The notes beneath the pieces are model-generated. The model was given only the letters and a program-made list of their open reading frames with translations. It was not told the DNA's origin and searched no databases. DNA of 44,160 bases from a bacterium (lineage in GTDB: Bacteria; Patescibacteriota; Minisyncoccia; Phycocordibacterales; Phycocordibacteraceae), in the NCBI GenBank assembly GCA_021789225.1, contig JAJYJQ010000004.1, forward strand, positions 1 to 44,160, in the 5' to 3' direction. The position numbers were made by a program, and so were the translations under genes. Below are positions 9,715 through 38,448 of the stretch, in pieces (the first letter of the stretch is position 1; each line of letters opens with the position of its first letter).

Positions 9715-9732
9715 TTGCCCCAAGCCCATCGG

Positions 9733-9776
9733 AAAGCTCTCCTGCATGAACACGCGTGTTCATGCAGGAGAGCTTT
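9733..9776. repeat. Perfect 44-bp palindrome (likely terminator)
   Basis: AAAGCTCTCCTGCATGAACACG|CGTGTTCATGCAGGAGAGCTTT with no spacer. Confidence 0.85.
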
Positions 9777-9840
9777 GTATTTTGTGCGGGCAGTGCAAAA
9801 CGCGCGCGGCGGAGCCGCGCGCGTGCGCTACACTACACGC

Positions 9841-11745: not shown

Positions 11746-12111
11746 ATGAACTCATCTCTCCTCGAGTTTCGCGACCACGAAGATCGCCCGTGGGGCTCGT
11801 TTGACCGATTCACGCGCGACGAGCTCTCGACAGTGAAAATCATCCGCGTTGCGCCGAGCAAGCGCCTCTCCCTCCAACGACACTCGCATCGCAACGAGTT
11901 CTGGCACATCATCTCCGGGAGCGGCACTGCCACCATAGACGAACACGAGACCGCCGTCGCCCCTGGGGACGAGTTTGAGGTGCCCGCACGCACGCTCCAC
12001 CGCCTCGCAGCCGGGCCGGAAGGCCTCTCCTTGCTCGAAATCGCCTTCGGCCATTTCGATGAAAACGATATCGAGCGCTTTGAAGACGACTTCGGCCGCA
12101 CCACCCCATGA
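11746..12111 (+). CDS. Cupin, mannose-6-phosphate isomerase type II C-terminal-like
   Basis: RPWGSF, LSLQRHSHRNEFW, HRL, EI..G.FDE.DIERFEDDFGR. Confidence 0.85.
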   Translation: MNSSLLEFRDHEDRPWGSFDRFTRDELSTVKIIRVAPSKRLSLQRHSHRNEFWHIISGSGTATIDEHETAVAPGDEFEVPARTLHRLAAGPEGLSLLEIAFGHFDENDIERFEDDFGRTTP

Positions 12112-13325: not shown

Positions 13326-15293
13326 ATGTTTACCGTCCGCCGCGAACCCGCCAACCCTATACTCTCCCCGCGCCGCGAGCACCCCTGGGAGGCAGTCGCC
13401 ACATTCAATCCTTCCGCCGTCCGTACGGAAGACGGCACGCGCATCTTTTATCGTGCCATGGGCAATCCGAACGCGCTCACGACGCCACACGCGAGCCTCT
13501 CGACCATCGGCACCGCGTTTGCCGAAGACAGCGTGCATTTCCATTCGCGCCGCCAGGTCATCATACCGACCGAGCCATGGGAGCAGTACGGCTGCGAAGA
13601 TCCGCGCGCGACCTTTTTCGAGGGCAAGTGGTACGTCTTCTACACCGCGCTCGGCGGCTATCCTTTCGGGCCGGACAATATAAAGGTGGCGGTCGCGGTC
13701 GGCGAGAACCCGGAGCATCTCGACGAGCACCATCTCGTCACCCCTTTCAATGCCAAAGCCGCGACGCTCTTCCCCGAGCGCATCGATGGCGACGTCGTCT
13801 TGATGCTCACCGCCCACACCGACTGGACGGCCGAATATCCGCGCCCTACTATCGGCATCGCACGAGCGAAGCGCATCGAGGAGTTCTGGGACAGTGCCTT
13901 TTGGGAACGCTGGCATGCCGAGCTTCCGCAGCACGCGCTCGCCGAGCTCAGGCGCGCTGACGACGACCACATGGAGGTCGGTGCGACCCCGCTCAAGACC
14001 GAGCAGGGCTGGCTCCTCATCTATTCCTACATCCAGCACTACTACGACGAACACCACCGCACGTTTGGCATCGAAGCAGCGCTCCTCGACCTGCAAAACC
14101 CGCAACGGCTCATCTCGCGCACGTACCCCTTCCTCGTCCCCGAAGAGGTGTATGAGCAGTACGGGCTTGTCCCCCACATCGTTTTTCCTTCCGGCGCGAC
14201 CGTCCACGACGACACGCTCGAGGTGTGGTACGGCGCTGCCGACACGGTTTGTGCTAAAAGTTCCATCCGCCTCCCCGATCTTCTGCGCGCGCTCGACCCA
14301 GCGCGCCCCGCACGCACCCTCACGCGCGCCGAAGAGAATCCGATCCTCGAGCCGCGCGGAAACGGCTTTGAGGAAGCGGCCGTTTTCAATCCTGCCGCGC
14401 TCGACCTCGACGGTTCCGTACACATTTTTTATCGCGCCATGGGCAGCGATAACACCTCGGTCATCGGCTACGCACGCTCCGAGGACGGCATTCATGTCAC
14501 CGAGCGCCTCACCGAGCCTGTGTATGTACCGCGCGCTGAGTTTGAGCAGAAGAAAGGCGACTCGCACGGCAACTCCGGCTGCGAAGACCCGCGCCTCGCG
14601 GTAATCGGCGATCGCCTCTACATGACCTACACCGCCTACGACGGCGTGCGTCCGCCGCGCGGTGCAGTCACCTCGATCTCGCTCGACGACTTCCGCGCGC
14701 GCAGCTTCGACCGCTGGGACCTGCCGGTGCTCATTACGCCAGACAACGTGGATGACAAGGACGTCGGCTTGCTTCCCGAGCGTATCGGCGAAAATTTCCT
14801 GCTCTACCACCGCATCGCAAACCGCATCTGCGCAGACCTCCTTCCCGACCTCGCACAAGGCAAACGCGTCTCGCGCTGCATCGAGATCATGGGGCCGCGC
14901 GAGGGCATGTGGGATTCTGCGAAGGTCGGCATCGCCGCACCACCACTCAAGGTCGAAGATGGTTGGCTTTTGATTTACCATGGTGTCTCACATCGCGGAC
15001 GTTATCGCCTGGGCGCGGCACTCCTCGACACAGACGGCATAACGCTCCTCGCGCGCACCGCCGACCCCATCTTCGAGCCAGTCGAACCCTACGAACAAAG
15101 CGGCACGATTAACAATGTCGTTTTTGCCTGCGGCGCCGTCGCACGCGGCGATACGCTCTTTGTGTACTATGGCGGCGGCGACCGTGTCGTCGGCGTCGCG
15201 ACTGGGAGCGTGAGCCACATCCTGCGCGCGCTGCGCGCAGATGAGCGTCGCCCATATGCCATCCCAACATACTCTCCCCATGTCACTACCTGA
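13326..15293 (+). CDS. Tandem two-domain GH130 protein
   Basis: Two repeats of NPIL.P...FNP.A...YRAMG...GCEDPR...GWLLIY...VF..GA...YG..D. Confidence 0.85.
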   Translation: MFTVRREPANPILSPRREHPWEAVATFNPSAVRTEDGTRIFYRAMGNPNALTTPHASLSTIGTAFAEDSVHFHSRRQVIIPTEPWEQYGCEDPRATFFEGKWYVFYTALGGYPFGPDNIKVAVAVGENPEHLDEHHLVTPFNAKAATLFPERIDGDVVLMLTAHTDWTAEYPRPTIGIARAKRIEEFWDSAFWERWHAELPQHALAELRRADDDHMEVGATPLKTEQGWLLIYSYIQHYYDEHHRTFGIEAALLDLQNPQRLISRTYPFLVPEEVYEQYGLVPHIVFPSGATVHDDTLEVWYGAADTVCAKSSIRLPDLLRALDPARPARTLTRAEENPILEPRGNGFEEAAVFNPAALDLDGSVHIFYRAMGSDNTSVIGYARSEDGIHVTERLTEPVYVPRAEFEQKKGDSHGNSGCEDPRLAVIGDRLYMTYTAYDGVRPPRGAVTSISLDDFRARSFDRWDLPVLITPDNVDDKDVGLLPERIGENFLLYHRIANRICADLLPDLAQGKRVSRCIEIMGPREGMWDSAKVGIAAPPLKVEDGWLLIYHGVSHRGRYRLGAALLDTDGITLLARTADPIFEPVEPYEQSGTINNVVFACGAVARGDTLFVYYGGGDRVVGVATGSVSHILRALRADERRPYAIPTYSPHVTT

Positions 15294-18200
15294 CTGCATA
15301 GTCTTCGACCTCGACAGCACGCTTGCCAAAAGCAAGCAGCCGATCGAGCCTGCGATGGCGGCAGCGCTCACCCGACTCCTCGCACGCATCAAGATCGCCG
15401 TCATTTCGGGCGGGAAGCTTGAGCAGCTTACGAAGCAAGTCGCTGACCGGCTGCCTCCGCACGCCGCGCGCGGAAATCTTTTCCTGCTCCCCACCTCCGG
15501 TGCCGCGCTCTACGCATATCGCACCGGCACCTGGACGCGCATATACCAAGAGGCGCTCTCACCCGACGAAGCAGCGAGCATACGTGCCGCGCTTCTTTCC
15601 GCAAACGAAGAGACCCACACGGTCGATTTCGGCACACCCGCACACGGCGAGCGCATCGAGTTCCGCGGCTCGCAGGTTTCATTCTCTGCGCTCGGGCAAG
15701 AGGCACCGCTTGCAGAAAAGCTTGCATGGGACCCGACGCGCGCGAAGCGCGAAGCGCTTCGCGCGGCACTCGAAGCGCGCCTGCCCGGATTCGAGGTGCG
15801 CATCGGCGGCACCACGACCATCGACATCACCAAGAAAGGTATCGACAAGGCGTATGGCGTCCGCCGGCTCTCCGAGCACCTGCACGTGCCCATCGACCGC
15901 ATGGAATATGTGGGCGACCAGCTTTACGAGGGAGGCAACGATGCGGTCGTCACGGCGACCGGCATCCCTACGCACGCTGTCACCGACCCCACGGACACGC
16001 TTCAGTACCTCACGCCTCTCCTCGCGCGCGCACCAGTAGCGCCGTCGCAGGGCCAGACCGGCCTCACGACAGCCGAGGCGCGACTCATCCGCGAGAAGGT
16101 CGGCGCGAACGTGCTCGAAGAAGCGCGTCCGGGCGTGTTCGGGAAATTCGTCTCGTGGACACTCACGCCGATTTCGCTGATGCTCGTGGCCGCGGCAGCG
16201 CTTTCGTTTGCTGCCGGCAAGATTCCCGATGGCTGGTTGACTCTTTTCCTCTTCGCAGCGAATTTCGGCATCCGCCTCTGGCACGAAGGCAAAGCCGATC
16301 ACGCCATCGCGAAGCTCCAGGAGAACCTCGCCGTCTCCTGCCGCGTGGAGCGCGATGGAGATTGGCAGAAGCTCCCTGCGACCGAACTCGTCCCGGGCGA
16401 CCTCGTCATGCTGTCGGTCGGTGCCATCGTGCCGGCGGACGCGACCGTACTCACCCAGACCAATCTCTCACTCAATGAGTCGATGCTTACCGGGGAGTCG
16501 CTTCCGCGCGAGCGCAGTGTCGGCGAGACGCTCTACTCCGGCTCATTCGTCGCGACCGGCAACGCGCTCGCCCTCATAACTGCCACCGGTACGCGCACCT
16601 ACTTCGGCAAGACGCTCGCTTCCGTCGAGCACGCCAAGAAACGCAGCGCGCTCGAAACGGACATCCTCTCGATCTCGCGCTTCCTTTCCATCTTCTCGCT
16701 GGTCGCCATCGCTATCCTCTCTGTCGTTCTGTTGCAGAATGCGAGCACCAAACTCATCGAGATCGCGACCCTCGACCTTTCGCTCCTCATCGCCGGCATC
16801 CCGGTCACGCTCCCGACAGTCATGAGCCTCATCATCAGCGTCGGCGTCCTCGAACTCGCCAAGCAGCGAGCCGCTGTGCGTCGCCTCTCCTCGCTCGAAG
16901 ACCTCGCCAATGTCGACCTCCTCCTTACCGATAAGACCGGTACGCTCACGGAAAACCGCATCACGGTCGATCGCGTGCTCGTGCTCGAGGGACAAGACGA
17001 ACGAGACGTCCTCGAGCTCGCCGTTTCTGCCACCGACCCCGCCGAAGGAAACGCGCTTGAGGACGCCGTCATCACGAGCGCACGTGCCGCGCTCGCCGCT
17101 CGCTTGCCACAGTCCTCCTTCACGCCAGGCGATTCGGAGCGCAAGCGGAGCACAGCCATCGTGACGCGCGCGGGCGTGCCATGGGTCGTCACGCTCGGGG
17201 CCCCGAGCACCGTGCGCGCGCTGTGCGATTTCCGCTCCGTCGACCTGGCGAAACGCTTTGACGAAGCGGTAGCGGAAGCAGCGGCGCGCGGCGACCGCGC
17301 GCTCGCGGTCGCCGCGCGCGAGGGCGCGCACGAAGCAGGCCTCAGGCCGATCGGTCTTCTTTTCCTCGCAGACACGCTCCGTGCCGACGCGAAGGAAACT
17401 ATCGCCGCCATGCGCGACCAAGGCATCACCGTCAAGATGCTCACCGGGGACGATGCCGCGATCGCTCGCCAAGTCTCGCATACGCTCGGGCTCGAAGGCG
17501 ACATCGCATCACGCACCGTCTTCGACTCATCACAAGCCCTCGACGCAGCATTCGAACAGGCTGCCGGATTCGCCAACGTACTCCCGGAAGACAAATACCT
17601 TGCCGTCGAACAAGCGAAAAAATCGCATGTCGTCGCCGTGACAGGCGATGGCGTGAACGACGTCCCGCCCGTCAAAGCGGCCGATGTCGGCATCGCCGTG
17701 AAGAACGCGGTGGACGCGCTGCGCTCGACCGCCGATATCGTCCTCCTCACGAACGGCATCGCGGTCGTGCAAGACGCCATCATCGAGGCGCGGAAAGTCT
17801 TCTCGCGCGTCTATCACTACTCGGTCTACCGTATTTCCGAGAGCTCGCGCCTCATCCTCACGATCGGCATCATCGGCGTCGTGGCGGGTGACTATCCGCT
17901 CACGCCCATACAGATCATCCTCCTCGCGCTCTTGAACGACATCCCCATCGTCTCACTCGCCTTTGATCGCGTCCACGCGCCACGTGTACCCGCCACCATC
18001 GACGTGAAGCGCCGCTTCCTCCTGGGCACGGTCTACGGCTTCACCGGCGTCTTAAACAGCGTGCTCATGCTCTGGCTCGCGCTCTCCGTCCTTCACCTGC
18101 CGTGGCCACAGATCCAGACGCTCTTCTTCTTGAAGCTCGTCGTCTCCGGCCACCTGCTCATCTATATCGCACACACCGACCACCGCTGGTTCCGCTTCCT

Positions 18201-18435
18201 CCCGAGCTGGCAGGTCATCACCGCTGTCACCGCGACACAGCTCCTGGCGACCGCCTGGGCGCTCTCCGGCCTCTTTACTGCCGCCATCCCGTTCTGGGTC
18301 GCGGCGTTCGTGTGGGTATGGGCCTTCTTCTGGATGCAGACTGCCGAGCTCGGCAAGATGCTCGTTGCCCGCGCCGCCAAGCCGAAACAAGCCTCCATGG
18401 AGCTCGCAGTTGCCGCGCTCGCGCGCGAGGCGTAG
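15280..18435 (+). CDS. Fusion of HAD-IIB phosphomannomutase-like domain and P3A-type H+-ATPase
   Basis: N-terminal FDLDSTL, ISGG, IEFRG, IGGTTTIDIT.KGIDK, GD..YEGGND; C-terminal GLT..EA, TGES, IPV.LP, DKTGTLT, MLTGD, GDGVND, YRI (TM5), LLND (TM6); single frame; upstream ATGs at 15241 and 15256 are possible. Confidence 0.85.
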   Translation: MSLPDCIVFDLDSTLAKSKQPIEPAMAAALTRLLARIKIAVISGGKLEQLTKQVADRLPPHAARGNLFLLPTSGAALYAYRTGTWTRIYQEALSPDEAASIRAALLSANEETHTVDFGTPAHGERIEFRGSQVSFSALGQEAPLAEKLAWDPTRAKREALRAALEARLPGFEVRIGGTTTIDITKKGIDKAYGVRRLSEHLHVPIDRMEYVGDQLYEGGNDAVVTATGIPTHAVTDPTDTLQYLTPLLARAPVAPSQGQTGLTTAEARLIREKVGANVLEEARPGVFGKFVSWTLTPISLMLVAAAALSFAAGKIPDGWLTLFLFAANFGIRLWHEGKADHAIAKLQENLAVSCRVERDGDWQKLPATELVPGDLVMLSVGAIVPADATVLTQTNLSLNESMLTGESLPRERSVGETLYSGSFVATGNALALITATGTRTYFGKTLASVEHAKKRSALETDILSISRFLSIFSLVAIAILSVVLLQNASTKLIEIATLDLSLLIAGIPVTLPTVMSLIISVGVLELAKQRAAVRRLSSLEDLANVDLLLTDKTGTLTENRITVDRVLVLEGQDERDVLELAVSATDPAEGNALEDAVITSARAALAARLPQSSFTPGDSERKRSTAIVTRAGVPWVVTLGAPSTVRALCDFRSVDLAKRFDEAVAEAAARGDRALAVAAREGAHEAGLRPIGLLFLADTLRADAKETIAAMRDQGITVKMLTGDDAAIARQVSHTLGLEGDIASRTVFDSSQALDAAFEQAAGFANVLPEDKYLAVEQAKKSHVVAVTGDGVNDVPPVKAADVGIAVKNAVDALRSTADIVLLTNGIAVVQDAIIEARKVFSRVYHYSVYRISESSRLILTIGIIGVVAGDYPLTPIQIILLALLNDIPIVSLAFDRVHAPRVPATIDVKRRFLLGTVYGFTGVLNSVLMLWLALSVLHLPWPQIQTLFFLKLVVSGHLLIYIAHTDHRWFRFLPSWQVITAVTATQLLATAWALSGLFTAAIPFWVAAFVWVWAFFWMQTAELGKMLVARAAKPKQASMELAVAALAREA

Positions 18436-28758: not shown

Positions 28759-28882
28759 ACCGACATTATACGCGATGCCTGTAATCCACCGAAAAATCCT
28801 TGATTTACCTACTCGTACGGCGTATCATGCAGGGAGTTTAGGGAATAGGTTCACCATCAATCAAACCTGGGGAGGAGAAAAG

Positions 28883-29596
28883 GTGGAAGAAGAATTTCCG
28901 TTGTTCTTTTGCGTTACCGGTTTACGCGGCACACGCCGCACGAGTGTCTTCAACGAACTCAAATCTCAGCTGCCGGGATTATATCCGGGGTTGAAATATG
29001 CGTTCTTTGAAGACCCCTTTGAGAAATTGGTTCACCCATTGCTCTGGCAGCGAGACAAAGACCCTGTCTCGCGGCTTTTCTCTGCGTGGGCGCTCATGAA
29101 TGAGCGCACCTGCGAGATCACTCGCGCCATAAACGCAGCAACGCCGCCCGACGTCATCGTCATTGATGGATTCGGCGCGAATGCCGTGCTTTACGCGACC
29201 GCGCGCGTTCCGAGCCGCTGCAAGTTCAAAGATGCCGAGCTCGACCGTCTGGATGACCAGGCGCTGACGATGCATCACAGTATCGTGGAAGCGCGCGTGC
29301 GCGGACAAGGCGTCAAACCGCCCGAGTACATCATCACCTGCGCCGATGAGCCCGTGGTCACGGCGTATCTGAAAGAAACGCTGCCTGATCTGGCCTCACA
29401 GCTGTCCGATCCCGAGTGGAATGCATTCATCCAGCACGAAAAACATATGCTGGATCGGTATTTTGCGCCGGGAAGTGGCCAGACATGCATCGGCAAGCTT
29501 GATGCGGCGATGTCGCTTCAGGCGATGGTTGATGAAGCAATGCTACTCATTCACACGCGTATCGCCGTGACGTTCGGCGAAGAAATCGCCGCTTAG
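28883..29596 (+). CDS. Divergent thymidylate-kinase-like (P-loop NMP kinase fold) hypothetical protein
   Basis: GGAGG SD before GTG 28883; FFCVTGLRGTRRTS, LF.AWA, VIVIDG, LDA..S...M layout resembles Tmk but the P-loop is degenerate. Confidence 0.55.
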   Translation: MEEEFPLFFCVTGLRGTRRTSVFNELKSQLPGLYPGLKYAFFEDPFEKLVHPLLWQRDKDPVSRLFSAWALMNERTCEITRAINAATPPDVIVIDGFGANAVLYATARVPSRCKFKDAELDRLDDQALTMHHSIVEARVRGQGVKPPEYIITCADEPVVTAYLKETLPDLASQLSDPEWNAFIQHEKHMLDRYFAPGSGQTCIGKLDAAMSLQAMVDEAMLLIHTRIAVTFGEEIAA

Positions 29597-29615: not shown

Positions 29616-29645
29616 AAAGGCCGACTGCTTTTGCAGTCGGCCTTT
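29616..29645. terminator. Bidirectional terminator
   Basis: AAAGGCCGACTGC-tttt-GCAGTCGGCCTTT between convergent genes. Confidence 0.8.
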
Positions 29646-29664: not shown

Positions 29665-31137
29665 CTACAAATCCGTTCCCGAGTAGGAGAGATTGAGGCT
29701 TTTGTTGCAGAGCGGGAAATCGGGGACGATGTTGCCGGGGCCGAGCTCGCCGAAGAGCGGCCAGTTCGTGAAGGACGGGTCGGTAATGACGAGACGATCG
29801 ATGCGGCCGTTCGCGTCGAGCGCGAGCCAGTCGAGGACCATGCCGCGCCACGATTCATTCCACCCATACGCGCTTCCCTTCCCACTGCCGAGCACGGCGA
29901 GGGTGTCGCCTTCGGGCAGCGTGTCGAGCACGGCGCGGATGAGGCGGATAGACTCTGCGCTCTCGCGGGCACGCACGCGGAAGCGTGCGGCGACATCGCC
30001 TGCCTTTTCCGTGACGAGCTCTGGCGCGTGCTCTGCGTACCCTGCGTACGGGAGGTCGAGACGTGCGTCGGCCGCGATGTTGGAGGCGCGGGCCGCGAGG
30101 CCGCGCGCGCCGTAGGCACGCGCGGCTGCTTCAGAGAGCACGCCTGTGGTCTCGAAGCGCTCCATGAGACCGTCATTGGTGAACGCGATGTCGAGGATCG
30201 TCTGCAGCTCACGCTCGATGCGCGCGAGCACCGTGCGGATCGTATCGCTGGCCTCGTCGCCGATGTCGTGCGCGCCGCCCAGCACGACCGCGCCGCGCAA
30301 GAAACGGTGCCCGACGAGCGACTCGTGCATGCGCCGCAGCTCTTCCACGAGCCGGAAGCCCTGCGCCGCCATGAAGGAGAAGCCGGTGCCGTTGCCGGCG
30401 ATGTTCCCCATATCGAAAATATGCGCCGTGAGCCGCTCGAGCTCGTTCCAAAGAACGCGCAGCGCCTTCGTGCGCGCACTCACGGCCGTGCCGGTCGCGC
30501 GCTCGACCGCTTCCGCAAACGCGAGCGTGTGCCCCACCACCATGTCGCCCGAGATACGCTCGACAAACGGGAACGCATCTTTCGGCGTCTTTCCCTCGAC
30601 GAGCTTCTCGACGCCTTTATGTTTGAAGAACAGCTTCCCTTCGAGCGAGAGGATGCGCTCGCCGCGCACATTGAAGCGGAAGTGCCCCGGCTCGATGATG
30701 CCAGCGTGGATCGGCCCGACCGGAATCTCGTAGATGCCCTTCCCTTCGACGGCGTGCATCGGATACGGTTCGTTCGCCACCGGGAGCTTCGTGTTCCAAG
30801 TGAAATCTTTGCGGAGCGGATGCGTATCAGCCGGAATATTCTCATGGTGCACGAGGCGGCGCAGGTCCGGGTGCCCGACCGGCTCGATGCCGAACTGGTC
30901 ACGGATAAGCCGCTCAAACCAGTGCGCAGCCATGACAAGCCGCGTCACCGAAGGATACGACGGATCGTTCTCGGGAAGCTCGGACTCCAGCGTGAGGAAG
31001 CCGTCCGCCGCCTGCAAGGCCGCGCGCACGACGAAGCCGCGCTTCGCGGTGCGTTCATCCGTCGCATAGAGCAGAGCGAGCGGCGCGTCGTCTTTCACGA
31101 GTGTCTGTACCTGCTTGGCAAATGCCTCACGCGGCAC
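29665..31137 (-). CDS. hyfG: Ehr/hydrogenase-4 large-subunit-like protein (NuoC+NuoD-like) without NiFe ligands
   Basis: WFER...D.FGI...GHPD.RRL, PLRKDF, VGPIHAGIIEPGHFRF, ERISGD (for RxCGxC), C-terminal DFPLCNKSLNLSYSG.DL; start uncertain. Confidence 0.88.
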   Translation of the reverse strand: MPREAFAKQVQTLVKDDAPLALLYATDERTAKRGFVVRAALQAADGFLTLESELPENDPSYPSVTRLVMAAHWFERLIRDQFGIEPVGHPDLRRLVHHENIPADTHPLRKDFTWNTKLPVANEPYPMHAVEGKGIYEIPVGPIHAGIIEPGHFRFNVRGERILSLEGKLFFKHKGVEKLVEGKTPKDAFPFVERISGDMVVGHTLAFAEAVERATGTAVSARTKALRVLWNELERLTAHIFDMGNIAGNGTGFSFMAAQGFRLVEELRRMHESLVGHRFLRGAVVLGGAHDIGDEASDTIRTVLARIERELQTILDIAFTNDGLMERFETTGVLSEAAARAYGARGLAARASNIAADARLDLPYAGYAEHAPELVTEKAGDVAARFRVRARESAESIRLIRAVLDTLPEGDTLAVLGSGKGSAYGWNESWRGMVLDWLALDANGRIDRLVITDPSFTNWPLFGELGPGNIVPDFPLCNKSLNLSYSGTDL

Positions 31138-31211
31138 GGAGGCGCCATCGACTCGGAGAGTGCGAGGCCGTGATCACGACTGAGTTGAGCGATAGTCTTC
31201 GACATAGCAGG

Positions 31212-32690
31212 TTATGAGAATAGCGCAGCCACACGTTCCACCAGCGGCAGTGCGGCACCGGAAATAATAAGCCCGAAGAAGCCGACGAGGAGCACCAGAT
31301 GCAAGACCATAGCCGCGTGCGAGATATTCCACGCCTCCCCACGCACGACCGGGTGTTCGGGCTGCTCGGCGCTCTCTGACCCGAAGAGGAACGGAACGAT
31401 GAGGCGGATGAAGCCGGCGAGAATCACGACGAACGCGAGCAGCGCGACGGCGATGACGAACGGGTGCGTACCGATACCCGCCGCGATGGTGAGGTACTCG
31501 CTCACGAAAAGCGGCGAGGGCGGCACCGCAAGCAGCATCAGAATGCCCGCGAAGAAGAGCGCGCCGGTAAACGGCAAGACGCGGCGGACATCGGCGACGC
31601 GCGCGAACTTGGTGCTATGGAAGCGCACAAGGATATTCCCTGCGCCCAGGAAGAGCATCGACTTGGCGAGCGCGTGGCCGATGAGCTCGACGACCGCCGC
31701 GACTGCACCCACAGGGCCGAGACCGAACGCGAGCACCATGAAGCCCATATGCTCCATGCTCGAGTACGCAAGGAGGCGCTTGTAGTCGGTCTGCGTGAGG
31801 ATGAACGCAGCCGCAACCACGAGCGTCAGCGTGCCAAACGCGAGAAGGAGCCCGTCGGTAAACCCGCTGCTGCCAAGCGCCGCGTCCGTGAGCACCTTGT
31901 AGCGCAAGACGGCGAAGAGCGCGGCGTTCAAGAGCACGCCCGAGAGCAGTGCGGAAATCGGAGCCGGAGCGCTCGAGTGCGCATCCGGCAGCCATGTGTG
32001 CATCGGCGCGAGGCCGACCTTGGTGCCGAAGCCCACGAGCGCGAACACGAACGCGAACCGCATCATAGACGGCGAGAAAGCGGCAGCCCCGAGCGAGAGC
32101 GTGCTCCAGCGCAAACCGGTGAGCGCGGAGATGACCCCCGACTGCGATGCAGCCGCTGACGCGAGCAGGAGCCCGATGAAGCCGAGTGCGATGCCGGTCG
32201 AACAGAGGATCAGGTATTTCCAGGCCGCTTCGAGCGAGGAAGAGCGCGCGTAGAACGCGACGAGGAAGGTTGTCGCGAGCGTCGTCGCTTCGAGGGCGAC
32301 CCACATGAGGCCGAGGTTGTCCGAGACGACCGTCACCAGCATCGCGAGCACGAAGAGCGCGAGCAAGACGTAGTAGCGGCGCACGAGCGGCTTCGCGACC
32401 ACGCCTGCGCGCACTTCTTCCAGAAGAAACGGGCGACTCGCCAAGGTCGCCGTCCACTGCACCGTGCCGATGAGTACCACCAGGAGCGCCGCAAACGAGT
32501 CCACGTACCAAACACTACCCCACGCGACCGGTCCAGCACCGAGGAGCACGGGCACGCCCACGAGAAGACTGAGCGCGAATACGACTGTGCTTGCGATCGA
32601 CGCGGCACGCGTGGTGTGCTCAGGGCGCGTGAATGAAAACGGCACGAGCGCCGCAAGGAAGCTGACGAAAATAAGAGCGTTAATCATCAT
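31212..32690 (-). CDS. hyfF: Antiporter-like membrane subunit (HyfF/NuoM-N/MrpD family)
   Basis: WVALEATTL, EAAWKY, GFGTKVGLAPMHTWLPDAHS, KRLLAYSS.EHMG, H.LAKS. Confidence 0.9.
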   Translation of the reverse strand: MMINALIFVSFLAALVPFSFTRPEHTTRAASIASTVVFALSLLVGVPVLLGAGPVAWGSVWYVDSFAALLVVLIGTVQWTATLASRPFLLEEVRAGVVAKPLVRRYYVLLALFVLAMLVTVVSDNLGLMWVALEATTLATTFLVAFYARSSSLEAAWKYLILCSTGIALGFIGLLLASAAASQSGVISALTGLRWSTLSLGAAAFSPSMMRFAFVFALVGFGTKVGLAPMHTWLPDAHSSAPAPISALLSGVLLNAALFAVLRYKVLTDAALGSSGFTDGLLLAFGTLTLVVAAAFILTQTDYKRLLAYSSMEHMGFMVLAFGLGPVGAVAAVVELIGHALAKSMLFLGAGNILVRFHSTKFARVADVRRVLPFTGALFFAGILMLLAVPPSPLFVSEYLTIAAGIGTHPFVIAVALLAFVVILAGFIRLIVPFLFGSESAEQPEHPVVRGEAWNISHAAMVLHLVLLVGFFGLIISGAALPLVERVAALFS

Positions 32691-33331
32691 AAATCGTTAA
32701 GGGCTTGCAGATAATCAGTTGTCGCAGACGCATGCGTCTCCTGCACACGTCGAATGAGCGCCGTCGCGAGCACGAGGAGCGCGAGCAGGTCGAAGAGCAC
32801 GCCAATTTCGACGAAGAGCGGCATCTGCTCGGCCACCGTGAGCCCCAGGAAGAAGACCCCGTTCTCGAGCATCAGGAAGCCGACGCTCTGGCCGAAGAGA
32901 CTCTTATGAGAGACGAGGAGCTCGAAGCCGATGAGCACGAGCGAGAACGAGACCGCCACCGGGAAAAGCTGATGATCGACCACGAGAACGCGCGCGAGCG
33001 CGACGGCCGCACCGATCGCCGCCATAGCAATGAACGTGAGCGTCGCCGGGCGGACATAGAGCGCAAGCCGCTCCGCTGCCCCGCTCTTCTTCGCTATGGA
33101 AAGAAGCATGGAGGGCATCACGGCGACTTTCAGCACGCACACGAGCGCGGCGATGAGCACCAGGTGTGCCTCGCCGAACTGCCACGCCGACCACAGCAGG
33201 TATGCGACGAGCGCGCACGCCTGAACGCGGAAAAGCTGCACGAGCGTGCGCAGCCGGGTGCGGCTCGGAAGCAGGAACGCCGACGCAAGAATGAGCGCCG
33301 CGATGAGTGAAAGTGGTCCGATCGTAGTCAT
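32687..33331 (-). CDS. hyfE: Membrane subunit HyfE-like
   Basis: Hydrophobic; K....P..L, Q.VGFLMLENG, P..VEIGVLFD. Confidence 0.85.
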   Translation of the reverse strand: MTTIGPLSLIAALILASAFLLPSRTRLRTLVQLFRVQACALVAYLLWSAWQFGEAHLVLIAALVCVLKVAVMPSMLLSIAKKSGAAERLALYVRPATLTFIAMAAIGAAVALARVLVVDHQLFPVAVSFSLVLIGFELLVSHKSLFGQSVGFLMLENGVFFLGLTVAEQMPLFVEIGVLFDLLALLVLATALIRRVQETHASATTDYLQALNDL

Positions 33332-33335
33332 AGGA

Positions 33336-34289
33336 TTAAAGGATATGCGCAAGCACGATCACCGCGCCGGCAAACGCGATAAAGAACGTGAGGGTGAAGT
33401 ACTCCTGCATGCGGTAGAAGCGCATCTTCACGACCAGCGATTCGATGAGGCCGACGAGGAGCGCGAAGAGCGCGAGCTTCACGGCAAGCAAGACGAGGCC
33501 GACGAGGAGCGCGAGCGCGCCAGCCGCCGGTGTAGCCAAACCAAACGGCAAGAGCAAATTCATGAAGAGCGCGCCGAAGAGCGCGAGGCGCAGCGCGCTC
33601 GCGTATTCGAGCATCGCCAGATACGGCCCGGAGTACTCGAGAATCATCGCCTCGTGCACCATCGTGAGCTCGAGGTGCGTCGCCGGGTTGTCGACCGGGT
33701 AGCGCGCGTTTTCCGCGAGCGTGACGAGGAGGAGCGCCAGCAAGGTCGGCGCGACCACAAGCGTCCCGGCATGCCAGGGCGTGCGTGCGAAGAACGCGAG
33801 GATGCCGTCGAGGCTCGCACTTCCCGCAAAGAACGCGAGCGTCGCAAGCACCAGGAAAAACGCCGGCTCAGCGAGCGCTGCGAGCGTCATTTCCCTATTC
33901 GAACCCATGTTGCCGAACGTGCTGCCGGTGTCCATGCCGCCGAATACGAGGAAAACGGAGCCGAGCGCCGCGATTGCGACAAAGAGGAAGATGTTTGAGA
34001 TGCTCGGGCCCCACGCGCCAAAACCGATGCTCGGCGTGACGAGCGCGAGCGCGAGCGTCGTCCCCAGCACCGCAAACGGCACGAAGCGGTACACCCAGGA
34101 GCTGTGCTCGGGAATCGTCATCTCTTTGCGCATGAGTGTCGCGAACGTCCAGTACGGCTGACAGACGGGCGCGCCACGGCGGTTTTGCAGGAGCGCCTTC
34201 ACCCGCCGGATCATGCCCGTGACAAGCGGTGCAAGCGCGAGGAGGGCGAGACCCTGGAAGAACACGAAGAGGAGTGAAGCGATGCTCAT
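33336..34289 (-). CDS. hyfC: Membrane subunit HyfC/HycD/NuoH-like
   Basis: RRVKA.LQNRRG.P..QPY, FG.MGS.RE, ENARYPVDNP.THLELTMVHEAMILEYSG; ATGA overlap with hyfB. Confidence 0.9.
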   Translation of the reverse strand: MSIASLLFVFFQGLALLALAPLVTGMIRRVKALLQNRRGAPVCQPYWTFATLMRKEMTIPEHSSWVYRFVPFAVLGTTLALALVTPSIGFGAWGPSISNIFLFVAIAALGSVFLVFGGMDTGSTFGNMGSNREMTLAALAEPAFFLVLATLAFFAGSASLDGILAFFARTPWHAGTLVVAPTLLALLLVTLAENARYPVDNPATHLELTMVHEAMILEYSGPYLAMLEYASALRLALFGALFMNLLLPFGLATPAAGALALLVGLVLLAVKLALFALLVGLIESLVVKMRFYRMQEYFTLTFFIAFAGAVIVLAHIL

Positions 34290-36238
34290 ACAGCGGCGAT
34301 GACGAGGACAATGATAAGCGCGATGAACATGAAAAGAAGGTATGCCTGCACGACGCCGTTTTGCATGCGGCGCATCGCGCGCGCCGTGCGCAAGACGAGC
34401 GCCGCAATCGGACGGTACGCGTAGCGTTCCCAGAAGGAATCCACGCTCCAGAGGATCCGGCGCTTCGCGATCCACGGATTCGTGGCGACGACCGGCTCAG
34501 CGGTCACCTCCTTTTCGGCAAGAACGATCGCGCGGAAGAAGAAGCGGACCGGCGCAGCGAAACCGGTAGCGGTCTGCTCCATGCGCGGCGTAAGCGGCGT
34601 ACCGCAGTCCCAGGTGCCGGTCACGCGCGCGCCGCGCTCTGACGCGAAGGCGCGCGCGGCGAGAAAGGCCAAGAGCAGCGCGCCGCCGAGGAGAACGAGG
34701 ACGAGCCATGCGTTCATCGCCGCACCCGAGGCGAGCACAGTGCTCGCGAAGAGCGCGTGCGCCGAAAGCGGAGCCTGGGCCGAAAGGAGCGGCAAGACGA
34801 AAAGCCCGGTGCCCAGGAGTGCGAGCGCCCCGAGCGCCGGCGGCACAACGAGCAGGAGCGAGGGTCGCTCCCCTGCCACCGCATGCGCCGCGTGCTCCGA
34901 GCGGGCGCGCCCGAGGAACACCGTGCTGAAGAGCTTCACGAAGGCAAAGGCCGCAAGCCCGCCGACGAGCCCGATGATGCCAAGCACGAGCGCCGCTGCG
35001 ATCGAGGCCGGCAAGGGCGCCGAAAGGCCGAGCACAAGCGCCTGCAGGTACGCCCACTCACCGAAGAACGTGCCGAAAGGCGGCAGCGCTGCGGCTGCGA
35101 GCGAGAGTGCGAGCACCACGCCCGAGAAGACCGGCCACGCAGCCGCGAGCCCGCCGAGCGCGTCGAGGTCGCGGGTGTGCGTCTTCGCGACGATCGTCCC
35201 GGCCGAGAGGAACAAAGAAAGCTTCATCAGTGCGTGATTCAGCGTATGCAAAATGACGAACGTCACCATGCCGGCCGCCATCGCGGATACGAGCGGCGAC
35301 TGCGGCAGCGCGCCAAGCATCACCACTGCACCGACGCCCGAGAAGATAAGACCGAGGTTCTCGATACTGCTCCAAGCCAGAAGGCGCTTCAGATCGTCCT
35401 CGACCGCCGCATGGAGCGCGCCGAAGAACGCCGACAGGAGCCCGAGCGCGATGACGAGCGCCGAAAGCGCGAGCGGAATTCCCGGAAAAAGCGAGACCGA
35501 GAGTATGAAGCCGAAGAGCGCGACCTTGAGCATCACGCCCGAGAGGAGCGCCGAGGCATGGCTGGGCGCCTGCGAGTGCGCTTTCGGGAGCCACTGATGC
35601 AGCGGCACGAGACCCGCTTTCGAACCGAAGCCCGCCAAGAGGAGCACGAACGCGACACCGCGCGCCACACCCGAGAGCTGCGCTGCTGAAGCGGCAACCT
35701 CCTGCCAAGTGGCGAACGGTGCGCCGCCCGCAAGCAAGAGCATGCCGCTGGCGATTGCTGCGAAGCCGAGCTGCGTCATGACGAGGTATTCGACACCTGC
35801 GCGGAAGGCATCCGGCGTGCGCTCCGAAATCACGAGGAAGTACCCCGAGATCGACATAAGCTCCCAGGCGATGAGAAACGCAAGTACGGAAGGAGAAAGC
35901 ACCACCGCCTCCATGCCGATAAGGAATAGCGCGAACGCACTCGCGTGCCAGGCCGAGGCGTACGACTCGCGATAGAGCGGGATGTAGGCGATGGCGTAGA
36001 GCGACGCGAGGAAGGTGCCTATCCCGATGATGCCGAAGAAGAACGCCTGGATCGGTGCGAGCGCGCCTGCAAACGGCCCGACGAAAGAGCCGATGGCCGC
36101 CGCAAGCGCCGAAAGGCCGCCGAGCGCGTAGGCGCCATACGTGATGCGGATACTCTCATCGCTCGATGCGGATACAAACGACGACAGCGCTCCAGCGAGC
36201 GGCAATGCGAACGACACGATGACGAGTCCGGTGAGCAT
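34286..36238 (-). CDS. hyfB: Antiporter-like membrane subunit HyfB/HycC/NuoL-like
   Basis: WELMS, GFGSKAGLVPLH.WLP.AH, KRLLAWSSIEN, NH...K..LF, LPPF..F.GEW, WDCG. Confidence 0.9.
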   Translation of the reverse strand: MLTGLVIVSFALPLAGALSSFVSASSDESIRITYGAYALGGLSALAAAIGSFVGPFAGALAPIQAFFFGIIGIGTFLASLYAIAYIPLYRESYASAWHASAFALFLIGMEAVVLSPSVLAFLIAWELMSISGYFLVISERTPDAFRAGVEYLVMTQLGFAAIASGMLLLAGGAPFATWQEVAASAAQLSGVARGVAFVLLLAGFGSKAGLVPLHQWLPKAHSQAPSHASALLSGVMLKVALFGFILSVSLFPGIPLALSALVIALGLLSAFFGALHAAVEDDLKRLLAWSSIENLGLIFSGVGAVVMLGALPQSPLVSAMAAGMVTFVILHTLNHALMKLSLFLSAGTIVAKTHTRDLDALGGLAAAWPVFSGVVLALSLAAAALPPFGTFFGEWAYLQALVLGLSAPLPASIAAALVLGIIGLVGGLAAFAFVKLFSTVFLGRARSEHAAHAVAGERPSLLLVVPPALGALALLGTGLFVLPLLSAQAPLSAHALFASTVLASGAAMNAWLVLVLLGGALLLAFLAARAFASERGARVTGTWDCGTPLTPRMEQTATGFAAPVRFFFRAIVLAEKEVTAEPVVATNPWIAKRRILWSVDSFWERYAYRPIAALVLRTARAMRRMQNGVVQAYLLFMFIALIIVLVIAAV

Positions 36239-36253
36239 AAGAGGTATGAGAGC

Positions 36254-36778
36254 TTACGAATGTCTGGCGGCGAGAATGGCCGAGCGCAGGCCCACGAGAA
36301 TATCGCGCGGCGAGGGCGGATCGCCCGGGATGACAAAGTCCACAGGAATGACCGCATCTACCGGGCCGACGACCGCGTACGAATCTTTCCAGATACCGCC
36401 GGTCGCAGCGCCGTCGCCAACCGCAACGACGATCTTAGGCGCCGGGGTTTGGTCGTAGGCAGTCTTGAGCGCGTGCGCCATGTTGCGCGTGACCGGGCCA
36501 GAGACCGTCAGGATGTCTGCGTGCCGCGGGGACGCCACGAAGGAGATGCCGAAGCGGTCCGCATCATAAAAGGCGTTCCCGAGCGCGGTGAGCTCGTACT
36601 CTTCCCCGTTGGTTGAGCCGGCATCAACGTGGCGAATGTGGAGCGCGCGTCCGCCGTAGAGCTCTTTGATCGCAGCGCGAAGCGACTCACCGACGTGCTC
36701 GGTCTCCTCTTCCGGGGAAAGTAAAATCGGATCGGGGTGCGATCCGGTCGAGATCATCTTTGCAAACGCAGCTAGCAT
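36254..36778 (-). CDS. hyfI: Small subunit HyfI/HycG/NuoB-like, with no cysteines
   Basis: RHVDAGSTNGEEYE, YD.DRFG..FVASPRHAD.L.V.GPVT.NM, P.PK.VVAVGDGA..GG, IPGDPP.P. Confidence 0.88.
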   Translation of the reverse strand: MLAAFAKMISTGSHPDPILLSPEEETEHVGESLRAAIKELYGGRALHIRHVDAGSTNGEEYELTALGNAFYDADRFGISFVASPRHADILTVSGPVTRNMAHALKTAYDQTPAPKIVVAVGDGAATGGIWKDSYAVVGPVDAVIPVDFVIPGDPPSPRDILVGLRSAILAARHS

Positions 36779-36861
36779 AACAGAAATGTGACATTCGCTA
36801 TACTACGCCTCCCCCGAAAAAAATCCAGGGTGTGCATAACCCACGAGCCAGACAGCCGAGA

Positions 36862-37159
36862 GGCAGCGGGAGGGCATGCTTAGCGAACCAGTTGCGCAGG
36901 CGTCCTTGCATGGTGGTTTGGCATTTCTGGGCTTGCGAGCCGAAGCACGCCGCGTCCGCTCCGCCGGCACATCGAAAAAAGTGACCGCTTCGGGCCGCTA
37001 GACCGAGTCTTAGTCACTTTTTATCGATGGTGCCGGCTCTGCGCCCGCTACGGTAGAGACACGATTGGGCTCGCGATGCCAAACCAAGGACGCTGAAGCA
37101 GAGGGAGCGAGCGGCTGGGCGAGCGAGCGCTGGTTCGCGAAGCATGCCCTCCCGCTGCC
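36862..37159. repeat. 298-bp nested palindrome downstream of rpoD containing a family B core
   Basis: 30-bp outer inverted repeat (29/30), inner GCGTCCTTG/CAAGGACGC and TGGTTTGGCAT/ATGCCAAACCA; core 36964-37036 is homologous to 23133-23204. Confidence 0.85.
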
Positions 37160-37167
37160 GGCGCCAC

Positions 37168-38448
37168 TTAATACGACTTGAGGTGGCGGGATTTTTCGTG
37201 GAGGCGGATCTTTTCGAGCGCTTTGGCTTCGATCTGGCGGATACGCTCGCGCGTGACGCCGAACTCCTTCCCCACTTCTTCGAGCGTGTGGTAAATGCCG
37301 TCGGCAAGGCCGTGGCGCAGCTCGAGAATTTTACGCTCCTTGGGCGAGAGGTCGCCGAGAATGTCGCGCACCTGCATCGCGAGGATGCGCTCCGAAGACT
37401 CCTGCACCGGCGAAGGCACTTTGTCATCGGCAATGAAATCGCCGAGCGTCGAGCGCTCGTCGTCGCCGTCGCCCACCGGGTTTTCGAGCGAGAGCGTGTC
37501 CTGGTTGATCTTCTCGATCTGGTAGATCTTTTCTGGCTCGACACCCATCTCCACGGCCACTTCTTCGGGCTGCGGGTCGCGACCGAGCATCTGCGCGAGG
37601 CGGCGCGAGACCTGCTTGTATTTAGCGATGGTCTCTACCATGTGCACCGGGATACGGATCGTGCGCGACTGGTCGGCGAGCGCGCGCGTGATCGCCTGGC
37701 GAATCCACCAGGTCGCATAGGTCGAAAACTTGTAGCCCTTCTTCCAGTCGAACTTGTCGACCGCCTTGAAGAGACCGAGGTTGCCTTCCTGGATGAGGTC
37801 GAGAAGCGTGAGGTCGGGCGAACGACCGACGTATTTCTTTGCAATGGAGACGACGAGGCGCAGGTTTGAGCGCGCGAGGATGTTGCGTGCTTCTTCATCA
37901 CCCGCCTCGATGCGCTTGGCGAGCTCGCGCTCTTCGGATGCGGTCAGGAGCGGATACTGGCCGATCTCGCGGAGGTAGATCTGGATGGAGTCGTACGAGC
38001 CTGAGTCCCGGCCTTTGATGTTGCGCGTCGCGAGATACTGGTCGGCGCTATCTTCGAGCATGCCGCCTTCGAGGATATCGATGCCCGCCGTCGCGAGGCG
38101 CTCGTACAGGTCTTCGAGAAATGCGACGTCGTTCTCCACGTGCGGGAACTCTTTCAGGATCTCGCTATAGGTGATGTAGCCGCGCTCGCGCCCCTTCGTG
38201 ATGAGCGTTTCGGCTTTCGCATTGCGTGCACCCTGCGCGCGCGGCGGTCGTGCCGTCACCTTCTTTGCAACCGCCTTCTTCACCGGCTTGGCCGATGTTT
38301 TCTTCACCGGCTTCTTCGGCGCGACTTTCTTCGCGACAACCTTTTTCACCGCTTTCTTGGGCGCACGGCTTGAAACCGGCTTCTTCACGCTCGCGCGCTT
38401 CGCCTTCGTGGTGACCACCTTCTTCTTGCTGGGTTTCGATGTCGCCAT
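37168..38448 (-). CDS. rpoD: Primary sigma factor (sigma70/SigA)
   Basis: [60 protein letters not shown]; Lys/Ala-rich N-terminus. Confidence 0.97.

What the first reader, a model, noticed from the sequence alone, without database searches (positions are those of the whole stretch)
29665..36778. Apparently cofactor-free complex-I/hydrogenase-4-like (Ehr) complex: no NiFe site, no Fe-S cysteines, no ferredoxin subunit
Seen: an intact six-gene operon (hyfI-B-C-E-F-G-like). The NuoB/HyfI-like small subunit keeps its conserved surroundings but all four [4Fe-4S] ligands are replaced: CNGC to TNGE, GDCA to GDGA, PGCPP to PGDPP. The protein has no Cys at all, and three of the four changes need multiple nucleotide substitutions, so they are not read errors. 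The large subunit has RISGD and NLSYSG in place of RxCGxC and DPCxxC, and no NuoI/HyfH gene is present. Known: Ehr complexes lack NiFe ligands but normally keep the small-subunit cluster. Inference: this complex has no visible redox wire yet keeps two antiporter-like subunits with their conserved Glu/Lys residues. It could be a redox-independent ion antiporter or pump, or use the T/E/D residues to bind another metal or ligand.
Basis: partly seen in the sequence, partly recalled or inferred. Interest (0 to 1): 0.88.

Follow-up and report, generated by a model that had tools for sequence, protein, structure and literature searches.

The report
Complex-I-like membrane complex without redox cofactors
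A tiny Patescibacteria genome carries an intact, well-conserved six-gene relative of complex I and membrane hydrogenases that has lost every visible site for nickel-iron or iron-sulfur cofactors, so it most likely moves ions across the membrane without any electron transfer.

Summary
On the minus strand of 29665-36778 lies a tightly packed six-gene Ehr-type operon (NuoB-like, HyfB-like, NuoH-like, HyfE-like, HyfF-like, NuoCD/HycE-like). The small subunit has no cysteine. Its four [4Fe-4S] ligand positions read T56, E59, G123 and D153, and the large subunit has no NiFe cysteines. The 98.5%-complete 782-kb genome gave no second NuoB gene, no ferredoxin-type match, no SufBD, no NifU and no UbiA.

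It is not decay. E59 and D153 are invariant in 120 of 120 closest homologues. The two peripheral subunits are the most conserved in the operon (dN/dS about 0.1-0.3, with dS saturated). The membrane-subunit Glu/Lys/His residues are kept.

CPR Ehr complexes lacking NiFe ligands are published (Jaffe 2020), and lacking a HyfH/NuoI gene is usual for Ehr. Cluster-less small subunits also occur in Syntrophus, Methanosarcinales and others (20 of 80 related loci). The operon is a patchy accessory trait, found in 4 of 120 congeners.

Best reading: a redox-independent ion translocator. The function is inferred, not shown.

The parts
36254..36778 (-). NuoB/HyfI/EhrS-like small subunit, 174 aa, no cysteine; former [4Fe-4S] ligand positions read T56, E59, G123, D153
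   Evidence: Pfam PF01058 at 7.6e-25. Alignments to 6cfw_J and 7z0s_G. Codons. E59 and D153 in 120/120 homologues.
34286..36238 (-). HyfB/HycC/NuoL-like antiporter-like subunit, 650 aa; keeps E126, K207, H214, H221, K238, H331, H335, K339, E394
   Evidence: PF00361 and NF005086. Alignment to HycC 7z0s_C. Residues at least 90% conserved in both cluster-less and Cys4 Ehr groups.
33336..34289 (-). HyfC/NuoH-like subunit; probable ATG start at 34289 overlaps the upstream stop codon (ATGA); many conserved membrane carboxylates (E132, E140, E192, D199, E206, E212, E217, E227, E282, numbered from that start)
   Evidence: PF00146 at 4.8e-33. Junction sequence. Conservation.
32687..33352 (-). HyfE-like small membrane subunit (NuoK/J-like), 221 aa; conserved K75, E163, N164
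   Evidence: NCBIfam NF008556 at 3.2e-13, below its cut-off; no Pfam hit. Conservation.
31212..32690 (-). HyfF/NuoM/N-like antiporter-like subunit, 492 aa; keeps E134, K224, H231, E313, H339, K343; its start overlaps the upstream stop (ATGA)
   Evidence: PF00361 and NF005044. Alignment to MbhH 6cfw_H. Conservation.
29665..31137 (-). HyfG/HycE/NuoCD-like large subunit, 490 aa; the NiFe cysteines are replaced (S196, M199, S484, G487); it carries the Ehr-wide motifs PxHAGIIEPGHFRF, R-I-S-G-D and NKSxNxSYSGxD
   Evidence: Pfam PF00329, PF00346 and PF00374 N-terminus. Alignment to HycE 7z0s_E. Column counts over 76 Ehr large subunits.
29616..29645 (.). 13-bp hairpin flanked by A and T runs, between the end of the operon and a convergent gene; probable bidirectional terminator
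   Evidence: Terminator scan.
36779..36975 (-). Upstream untranslated/promoter region of the operon, downstream of the rpoD terminator hairpin (36976-37022); no promoter was established
   Evidence: Sequence read. Hairpin I3. The sigma-70 scan found no minus-strand promoter here.

Best explanation
This is an intact member of the Ehr (energy-converting-hydrogenase-related) branch of the complex I / group-4 hydrogenase superfamily, maintained by selection, and it has lost every recognisable redox cofactor site. There are no NiFe ligands, no [4Fe-4S] ligands in the NuoB-like subunit, and no ferredoxin-like subunit.

Shown: the membrane arm (two antiporter-like subunits, a NuoH-like subunit and a HyfE-like subunit) keeps the buried Glu/Lys/His residues that carry ions in complex I, MBH and Mrp.

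Inferred: the complex translocates H+ and/or another cation without electron transfer. It would be driven by an existing ion gradient (Mrp-like exchange, using the proton-motive force that the cell's F-type ATPase and P-type ATPases can set up). The cofactor-less peripheral arm would serve as a conserved cap, gate or regulator of the NuoH-side channel.

It is an accessory module gained or lost as an ~8-kb block between uvrD and rpoD.
For: Architecture and cofactor-site losses.

No trans-supplied parts in a 98.5%-complete genome:
- a single PF01058 gene;
- no Fer4_7 match and no real ferredoxin motif;
- no SufBD, no NifU_N, no UbiA;
- PF00361 occurs only in this operon.

Purifying selection:
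- 43 invariant and 86 at-least-90%-identical columns out of 174 in 120 homologues, with E59 and D153 in 120/120;
- NG86 dN/dS of 0.12-0.22 for the small subunit and 0.11-0.30 for the large subunit, against 0.17-0.59 for the membrane subunits; amino-acid identity 67-74% against 43-63%.

Ion-path residues are at least 90% conserved in both cluster-less (up to 23 rows) and Cys4 (up to 60 rows) Ehr sets, and almost no positions outside the ligand columns are specific to the cluster-less set.

The cluster is dispensable elsewhere too:
- 20 of 80 related loci, including Syntrophus aciditrophicus and a complete Methanosarcina genome;
- 24 of 151 rows (the query plus 150 representatives of 50%-identity clusters) have at most 1 Cys at the four columns;
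- 9 of 10 strong Patescibacteria matches are cluster-less.

Physiological setting:
- an F-ATPase is present;
- the pmf-using transporters MFS, Nramp and SecDF are present;
- no CPA-type Na+/H+ exchanger was found, either by PF00999 or among the 35 other ORFs with at least 6 predicted membrane segments.

The ESM Atlas holds a confident model of the small subunit (pLDDT 0.84), with TM 0.86 to a PF01058 cluster.
Against: No experiment or expression data bears on it.

No Mrp-type Na+ module (MrpB/E/F/G-like genes) is present. It is therefore unclear where a second ion species would pass, and an all-proton device cannot be an exchanger.

The peripheral subunits are the most conserved parts of the operon, and the former NiFe pocket carries Ehr-wide invariant polar residues (H144, E149, H152, R154, S196, D198, N478, K479, S480, S484, Y485, D489). 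That is more than a passive cap would seem to need, and it favours a ligand-binding or catalytic site.

dS is saturated (0.8-2.1), so the dN/dS values are rough.

The trait is rare among congeners (4 of 120), so it is not needed for basic ion homeostasis in this genus.

Six of the multi-TM ORFs had no Pfam family, so an unrecognised antiporter could exist.
Confidence: 0.45

Rival explanations
1. A pump or gate driven by chemistry or a ligand. The former NiFe/quinone pocket of the large subunit, and the acidic residues that replaced the cluster ligands, would form a new non-redox active or ligand-binding site. Examples would be binding a small molecule or cation, or a protonation switch. Occupancy of that site would drive or gate ion translocation through the conserved NuoH-side channel.
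For: The peripheral subunits are the most constrained.

The pocket motifs PxHAGIIEPGHFRF, R-x-S-G-D and NKSxNxSYSGxD are near-invariant across 76 Ehr large subunits, whether or not the small subunit keeps its Cys.

Two carboxylates are always found among the four ex-ligand positions: E59 + D153 in this clade, and D at positions 1 and 3 in the D-x-D-x clades.

A lead from a preprint, passages read: a six-gene 'group 4f' cluster in Methylocystis, whose quoted motif ends in '...AARVS', was induced log2FC +4.2-4.5 at pH 5, with no H2 detected.
Against: No candidate substrate, partner gene or cofactor-synthesis gene is linked to the operon.

The acidic replacements sit at different positions in different clades, so they could simply fill the cluster cavity or form salt bridges.

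Conservation of the pocket may reflect coupling loops inherited from hydrogenases rather than a new activity.
Confidence: 0.25
2. Still a redox enzyme. A metal or cluster would be bound by non-cysteine ligands (E59, D153, T56, His residues), or electrons would be handed directly to the large subunit by a soluble carrier.
For: E59 and D153 are invariant. Asp and Glu can ligate Fe-S clusters or mononuclear metals in other proteins (general knowledge, not tested here). The genome has an Nramp-type metal importer.
Against: Position 1 varies among T, N, S and I, and position 3 is Gly or Ala.

The genome gave no ferredoxin-type match, no SufBD or NifU, and no quinone prenyltransferase.

No donor or acceptor module is encoded next to the operon.

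To my knowledge (recalled), no Fe-S cluster without a single Cys ligand has been described.
Confidence: 0.1
3. A decaying relic: an acquired Ehr operon that is losing function, with cofactor loss as the first step of pseudogenisation.
For: The distribution is patchy: 4 of 120 congeners and 0 of 16 genomes from other families of the same order. One paper asserts that Geobacter Ehr is non-functional (passage read).
Against: All six frames are intact, with coupled start/stop overlaps.

The same substitutions are fixed in 120 of 120 homologues spanning many CPR lineages.

dN/dS is well below 1, and the cofactor-less subunits are the best conserved.

The ion-path residues are intact.
Confidence: 0.03

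Closest known systems
[quoted passage not shown] 2020 (PMC7304191)
   Same: The same six-gene makeup and order (small, HyfB-like, NuoH-like, HyfE-like, HyfF-like, large), as in 20 of 20 cluster-less loci, give or take position of the small subunit.

The large subunit lacks both CxxC NiFe motifs and carries the Ehr-wide S-G-D / SYSG signature.

A ferredoxin-like subunit is usually absent (74 of 80 loci).

CPR sequences lacking the metal-binding cysteines are described in Jaffe 2020 (passages read).
   Different: Most related Ehr loci keep the four small-subunit cysteines (60 of 80); this one has none.

The passages I could read in Jaffe 2020 discuss only the large subunit for Ehr. I therefore cannot exclude that small-subunit cysteine loss is reported there.
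Group 4 membrane-bound [NiFe]-hydrogenases (E. coli Hyf/Hyc FHL, 7z0s; P. furiosus MBH, 6cfw)
   Same: These are the best solved-structure matches for the small subunit (MbhJ 1.2e-31, HycG 8.8e-28), the large subunit (HycE 5e-65) and the membrane subunits (HycC 2.6e-45, MbhH 5.9e-32).
   Different: No NiFe ligands, no proximal [4Fe-4S] ligands, no HycF/HyfH/MbhN ferredoxin subunit, and no MBH-type Na+ module.
Mrp multisubunit cation/H+ antiporter
   Same: Two PF00361 antiporter-like subunits with conserved TM5 Glu, TM7/TM8 Lys and TM12 Glu, plus a NuoK-like subunit. The HyfB-like subunit matches MrpA (7qru_A, 3.4e-27). No redox cofactor.
   Different: It has NuoH-, NuoB- and NuoCD-like subunits that Mrp lacks. 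It lacks MrpB/E/F/G-like genes.
Respiratory complex I (NuoB/NuoD/NuoH/NuoL-N core)
   Same: Homologous core subunits and the same arrangement of buried charged residues.
   Different: No N2 cluster ligands, no NuoI, no NuoEFG, no NuoA/J as separate genes, and no quinone prenyltransferase found in the genome.

Membership tests
Ehr complex | Gene cluster encoding two antiporter-like subunits, a NuoH-like subunit, a HyfE-like subunit, a large (NuoD/HycE-like) subunit and a small (NuoB-like) subunit | tested here: met
   The same order occurs in related loci.
Ehr complex | Large subunit lacks the N- and C-terminal CxxC NiFe-binding motifs | tested here: met
   S196/M199 and S484/G487 stand in place of the four Cys.
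Ehr complex | Large subunit groups with other Ehr large subunits | tested here: met
   In the ML tree of 74 rows (quick LG+G4), the query lies in a starred 4-row clade inside a starred 29-row clade. Every row scored is Ehr-type except L079. No bona fide hydrogenase outgroup set was included.
Ehr complex (typical form) | Small subunit keeps four Cys for one [4Fe-4S] cluster | tested here: not met
   TEGD at the four columns and 0 Cys in the protein. 60 of 80 related loci keep CCCC.
Group 4 [NiFe]-hydrogenase | RxCGxCxxxH and DPCxxCxxH/R motifs in the large subunit | tested here: not met
Group 4 [NiFe]-hydrogenase | Proximal [4Fe-4S] in the small subunit and a 2x[4Fe-4S] ferredoxin-like subunit | tested here: not met
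Group 4 [NiFe]-hydrogenase | Hyp maturation genes in the genome | not tested
   No search was made for HypA-F.
Respiratory complex I | N2 cluster in NuoB, NuoI with two clusters, and a quinone substrate | tested here: not met
   No UbiA-family prenyltransferase was found.
Mrp antiporter | MrpA- and MrpD-type PF00361 subunits with conserved Glu/Lys | tested here: met
Mrp antiporter | MrpB, MrpE, MrpF and MrpG small subunits; no NuoB/D/H homologues | tested here: not met
   The six genes are all assigned to Hyf/Nuo-type families. PF00361 occurs nowhere else in the genome.
Mrp antiporter | Cation/H+ exchange activity | not testable with these tools
   Needs expression in an antiporter-deficient host or proteoliposomes.

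The most novel reading that the evidence does not exclude
Ehr complexes as a class are not redox enzymes at all. The cluster-less forms in CPR bacteria, Syntrophus and Methanosarcinales share every conserved ion-path and pocket residue with the cluster-bearing forms. That would show the lone [4Fe-4S] cluster to be dispensable. The invariant S-G-D / NKS...SYSGxD / HAGIIEPGHFRF pocket would then be a new, non-redox active or sensing site that drives or gates a complex-I-type ion-translocation machine, possibly in pH or acid stress.
Probability: 0.2. Interest if true: 0.85.

Novelty: new variant of a known kind. Interest (0 to 1): 0.58.

Why it matters
Complex I, membrane hydrogenases and Mrp share one ion-translocating machine, and how chemistry at the peripheral arm is coupled to that machine is still debated.

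Here is a natural version that is under selection. It keeps the NuoB/NuoD/NuoH junction and the full membrane arm but has no electron-transfer cofactor. That separates what the junction does mechanically from what redox chemistry does.

It also gives the long-unassigned Ehr family a sharper question: its single Fe-S cluster can be lost in several lineages without any other conserved change.

For CPR biology, it is one of the few candidate membrane-energetics modules in genomes of about 0.8 Mb.

Tried and rejected
A second, Cys-bearing small subunit elsewhere in the genome: rejected. Only one PF01058 match was found.

Pseudogenisation: rejected on conservation.

Read error: rejected. The same residues occur in 120 homologues, and three of the changes need several base substitutions.

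Link to the ATP synthase. All 5 Ehr-positive genomes of the genus have PF00006, but so do 93 of 120 congeners, so this is not informative.

A seventh component. The convergent 273-aa gene at 28775-29596 has no Pfam, NCBIfam or PDB match. A homologue lies next to Ehr only in two congeners (G452, G008) and in none of the 80 other loci. I did not count it as a part.

Expression. The run search listed only the probable source DNA run (mine drainage metagenome) and two RNA runs of the same study that hold next to none of the words. No RNA holder was listed.

Literature on loss of the small-subunit cluster in Ehr. Searches (swamped by 'electronic health records') found only statements about the NiFe ligands of the large subunit (passages read). 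Marreiros et al. 2013 is not held. Coppi 2005 was not looked up and is cited only through other papers. Supplements are closed. I therefore cannot claim the feature is unpublished.

Single versus multiple origin of the cluster-less state. The large-subunit tree needs at least 3 changes, but its starred branches force only 1, so this is unresolved. No AU test was run.

The c-subunit ion specificity (FAEALG, with no Ser/Thr after the Glu) was judged H+-type from recalled motifs only.

Rows dropped:
- one search kept 145 of 151 rows (those with more than 30 gaps were removed);
- one search kept 74 rows (large subunits under 380 aa were removed);
- one search used only tblastn hits covering at least 60% of the query;
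- the ORFs used run stop-to-stop, so they include some upstream codons.

Not used: structure prediction, complex prediction, fold search, RNA tools. They give no coordinates, so they could not show what fills the cluster site.


Full report
**What is there.** The minus strand of 29665-36778 carries six tightly packed ORFs. Pfam and NCBIfam assign them as follows:
- a NuoB/Oxidored_q6 small subunit (174 aa);
- a HyfB-like antiporter-like subunit (650 aa);
- a NuoH-like subunit;
- a HyfE-like subunit (221 aa; NCBIfam only, below its cut-off);
- a HyfF-like antiporter-like subunit (492 aa);
- a fused NuoC/NuoD-HycE-like large subunit (490 aa).

Start and stop codons overlap or nearly touch at four junctions. 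The ATGA overlaps are at B/C and E/F. The NuoH-like gene most likely starts at 34289.

A hairpin with flanking A and T runs at 29616-29645 closes the operon. The upstream rpoD gene ends in its own hairpin at 36976-37022. The operon is therefore probably its own transcription unit, although no promoter was identified.

Neighbours are housekeeping genes: rpoC, dnaG and rpoD upstream, and a UvrD/PD-(D/E)XK helicase-nuclease downstream.

**The cofactor sites.** The small subunit has no cysteine. In HMMER alignments to MbhJ (6cfw_J) and HycG (7z0s_G), the four [4Fe-4S] ligands correspond to T56, E59, G123 and D153, inside otherwise well-conserved motifs. The codons are ACC, GAA, GGC and GAT.

Aligned to HycE (7z0s_E), the large subunit reads RISGDM for RvCGiC and NLSYSG for DPCYSC.

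The genome is 782 kb in 51 contigs and 98.5% complete. Homologues carry Patescibacteria, Kaiserbacteria or Minisyncoccota names. Searches of this genome gave:
- a single PF01058 match;
- no Fer4_7 match;
- only three chance-looking CxxCxxCxxxC matches among 6973 six-frame ORFs;
- no SufBD and no NifU_N;
- one class-V aminotransferase;
- one radical-SAM match over the cut-off plus one weaker;
- no UbiA;
- PF00361 only in this operon.

**Not decay.** Among the 120 best database homologues (62-100% identity), E59 and D153 are present in 120 of 120. G123 is present in 117 (Ala in 3). T56 is present in 105 (N 8, S 6, I 1). In all, 43 of 174 columns are invariant and 86 are at least 90% identical.

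Pairwise Nei-Gojobori estimates between the window and operons from three congeners have saturated dS (0.8-2.1), so they are only rough. They give the following dN/dS ranges:

| Subunit(s) | dN/dS | Amino-acid identity |
|---|---|---|
| Small | 0.12-0.22 | 67-72% |
| Large | 0.11-0.30 | 67-74% |
| Four membrane subunits | 0.17-0.59 | 43-63% |

The two cofactor-less peripheral subunits are thus the most constrained.

Across 80 related loci, the small subunit is the best-conserved subunit in both groups. Mean pairwise identity is 0.52 in the cluster-less group and 0.56 in the Cys4 group.

Buried charged residues of the membrane arm are at least 90% conserved in both groups (alignments):
- HyfB-like: E126, K207, K238, H331, H335, K339, E394;
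- HyfF-like: E134, K224, H231, E313, H339, K343;
- NuoH-like: nine carboxylates;
- HyfE-like: K75, E163.

**How it sits among relatives.** An exhaustive HMMER search of 1.84 billion representatives gave 5731 hits. The whole CPR clade collapses into one 50%-identity cluster. Of 151 aligned rows (the query plus the 150 best representatives):
- 94 have four Cys at the ligand columns, and 9 of those carry a fused ferredoxin motif;
- 20 have three Cys;
- 24 have at most one Cys.

A scan of species-representative genomes returned 80 loci:
- 60 have CCCC and 20 do not.
- 78 of the 79 loci that contain a large subunit lack at least three NiFe cysteines, so they are Ehr-type. The exception is L079.
- Only 6 of 80 have a ferredoxin motif on the operon strand, and in three of those it is fused to the small subunit.

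The absence of a HyfH/NuoI gene is therefore an Ehr trait and not special to this genome.

The cluster-less loci include:
- CPR lineages: Moranbacteria, Magasanikbacteria, Levybacteria, Kaiserbacteria, Parcubacteria;
- MAGs labelled Bdellovibrionales and Thermoleophilia;
- Syntrophus aciditrophicus (DADD);
- Methanosarcina, including a complete genome (DTDN);
- Moduliflexus (DPDN).

All show the same gene set.

On a large-subunit tree (74 rows, quick LG+G4), all cluster-less rows fall in one starred 29-row clade together with 9 Cys4 rows. A 41-row proteobacterial clade is entirely Cys4. At least three changes of state are needed, but the starred branches force only one.

Apart from the ligand columns, almost no position distinguishes cluster-less complexes from Cys4 complexes. 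The former NiFe pocket carries Ehr-wide near-invariant motifs in 76 sequences: PxHAGIIEPGHFRF, R-x-S-G-D and NKSxNxSYSGxD.

**Distribution and history.**
- The operon occurs in 4 of 120 other genomes of the same genus.
- It was found in 0 of 16 sampled genomes of other families of the order.
- In a 400-genome sample of the phylum, 10 genomes have strong matches. Nine of the ten are cluster-less.

Ehr-less congeners have uvrD directly next to rpoD. G000 and G452 have the operon plus an unknown 273-aa gene inserted between uvrD and rpoD. This patchiness agrees with Jaffe et al. 2020. That paper reported a monophyletic CPR clade of Ehr large subunits lacking the metal-binding cysteines and a patchy, transfer-shaped distribution (passages read). 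Its 'small subunit' passages concern group 3b enzymes only.

**Mechanism.**

*Shown.* There are no recognisable cofactor sites, and nothing was found that could supply them in trans. The ion-path residues are intact and selection is strong.

*Inferred.* The complex translocates ions without redox chemistry. The cell has an F-type ATPase. Its c subunit looks H+-type by motifs I recall. It also has three P-type ATPases in this same window and the pmf-using carriers MFS, Nramp and SecDF. No CPA-type exchanger was found by PF00999 or among the 35 other ORFs with at least six predicted membrane segments, six of which had no family. A gradient-driven, Mrp-like role is therefore the most economical reading (0.45).

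*Main rival (0.25).* The highly conserved pocket and the two fixed carboxylates form a new non-redox ligand, cation or proton site that drives or gates transport. Its appeal is that the peripheral arm is more conserved than a passive cap needs to be.

One lead bears on this. A 2026 preprint reports that a six-gene 'group 4f' cluster of Methylocystis was induced about 18-23-fold at pH 5 without detectable H2. The motif it quotes ends in '...AARVS', which resembles the Ser-for-Cys signature seen here (passages read; the resemblance is my inference). The only DNA run holding this window is labelled mine drainage.

*Minor rivals.* A residual non-Cys metal site with redox function (0.1) and decay (0.03) are less likely.

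**Novelty.** Ehr complexes, and their CPR clade, are known. I could not find any statement that a whole sub-group of them is entirely cofactor-free because the small subunit has also lost its cluster, while remaining under strong constraint. This comes from the text I could read. The founding Ehr papers and all supplements were out of reach, so I rate it a new variant of a known kind, with moderate-to-good interest.

Noticed in passing
window 36862-36891 and 37130-37159: A 30-nt inverted repeat (97% complementary, 238 nt apart) brackets the rpoD terminator hairpin, in the spacer between rpoD and the Ehr operon. This is exactly at one edge of the ~8-kb block that Ehr-less congeners lack. It could be a structured RNA or a scar of insertion.
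   Followed up: partly
window 28775-29596 (+): A 273-aa ORF convergent with the operon has no Pfam, NCBIfam or PDB match. Homologues lie next to the Ehr operon in two congeners (L114 = G452, L103 = G008), but not in the 80 other Ehr loci or elsewhere in this genome.
   Followed up: partly
L079 (Melainabacteria MAG), small subunit at about 9875-10435: The large subunit keeps all four NiFe cysteines, but the small subunit reads CEGN at the [4Fe-4S] ligand columns. That is the reverse of the usual Ehr pattern. The row sits on a long branch.
   Followed up: no
window 2807-5245, 9715-11679, 15241-18435 (+): Three P-type (E1-E2) ATPases lie in one 16-kb stretch. The largest (1064 aa) carries an N-terminal HAD/phosphomannomutase-like domain fused ahead of the Cation_ATPase_N domain.
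   Followed up: no
window 12108-13319 and 13326-15293 (+): Two adjacent GH130 (mannoside phosphorylase-type) genes lie between the P-type ATPases. The second (655 aa) has a ~350-aa N-terminal part with no Pfam match.
   Followed up: no
window 37168-38448 (-): The RpoD sigma factor begins with a ~70-residue Lys/Ala/Pro/Val-rich, histone-H1-like tail, ahead of region 1.1.
   Followed up: no
whole genome G000: No SufBD or NifU_N scaffold was found, yet there is at least one radical-SAM enzyme (C35:2984-3400) and one class-V aminotransferase (C12:2078-3172). How this cell builds its few Fe-S clusters is unclear.
   Followed up: partly
small-subunit homologues P0001-P0120, column of query residue 125: 63 of 120 clade members have a lone Cys two residues after the former third ligand (GDGAC). 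The query has Ala there.
   Followed up: no
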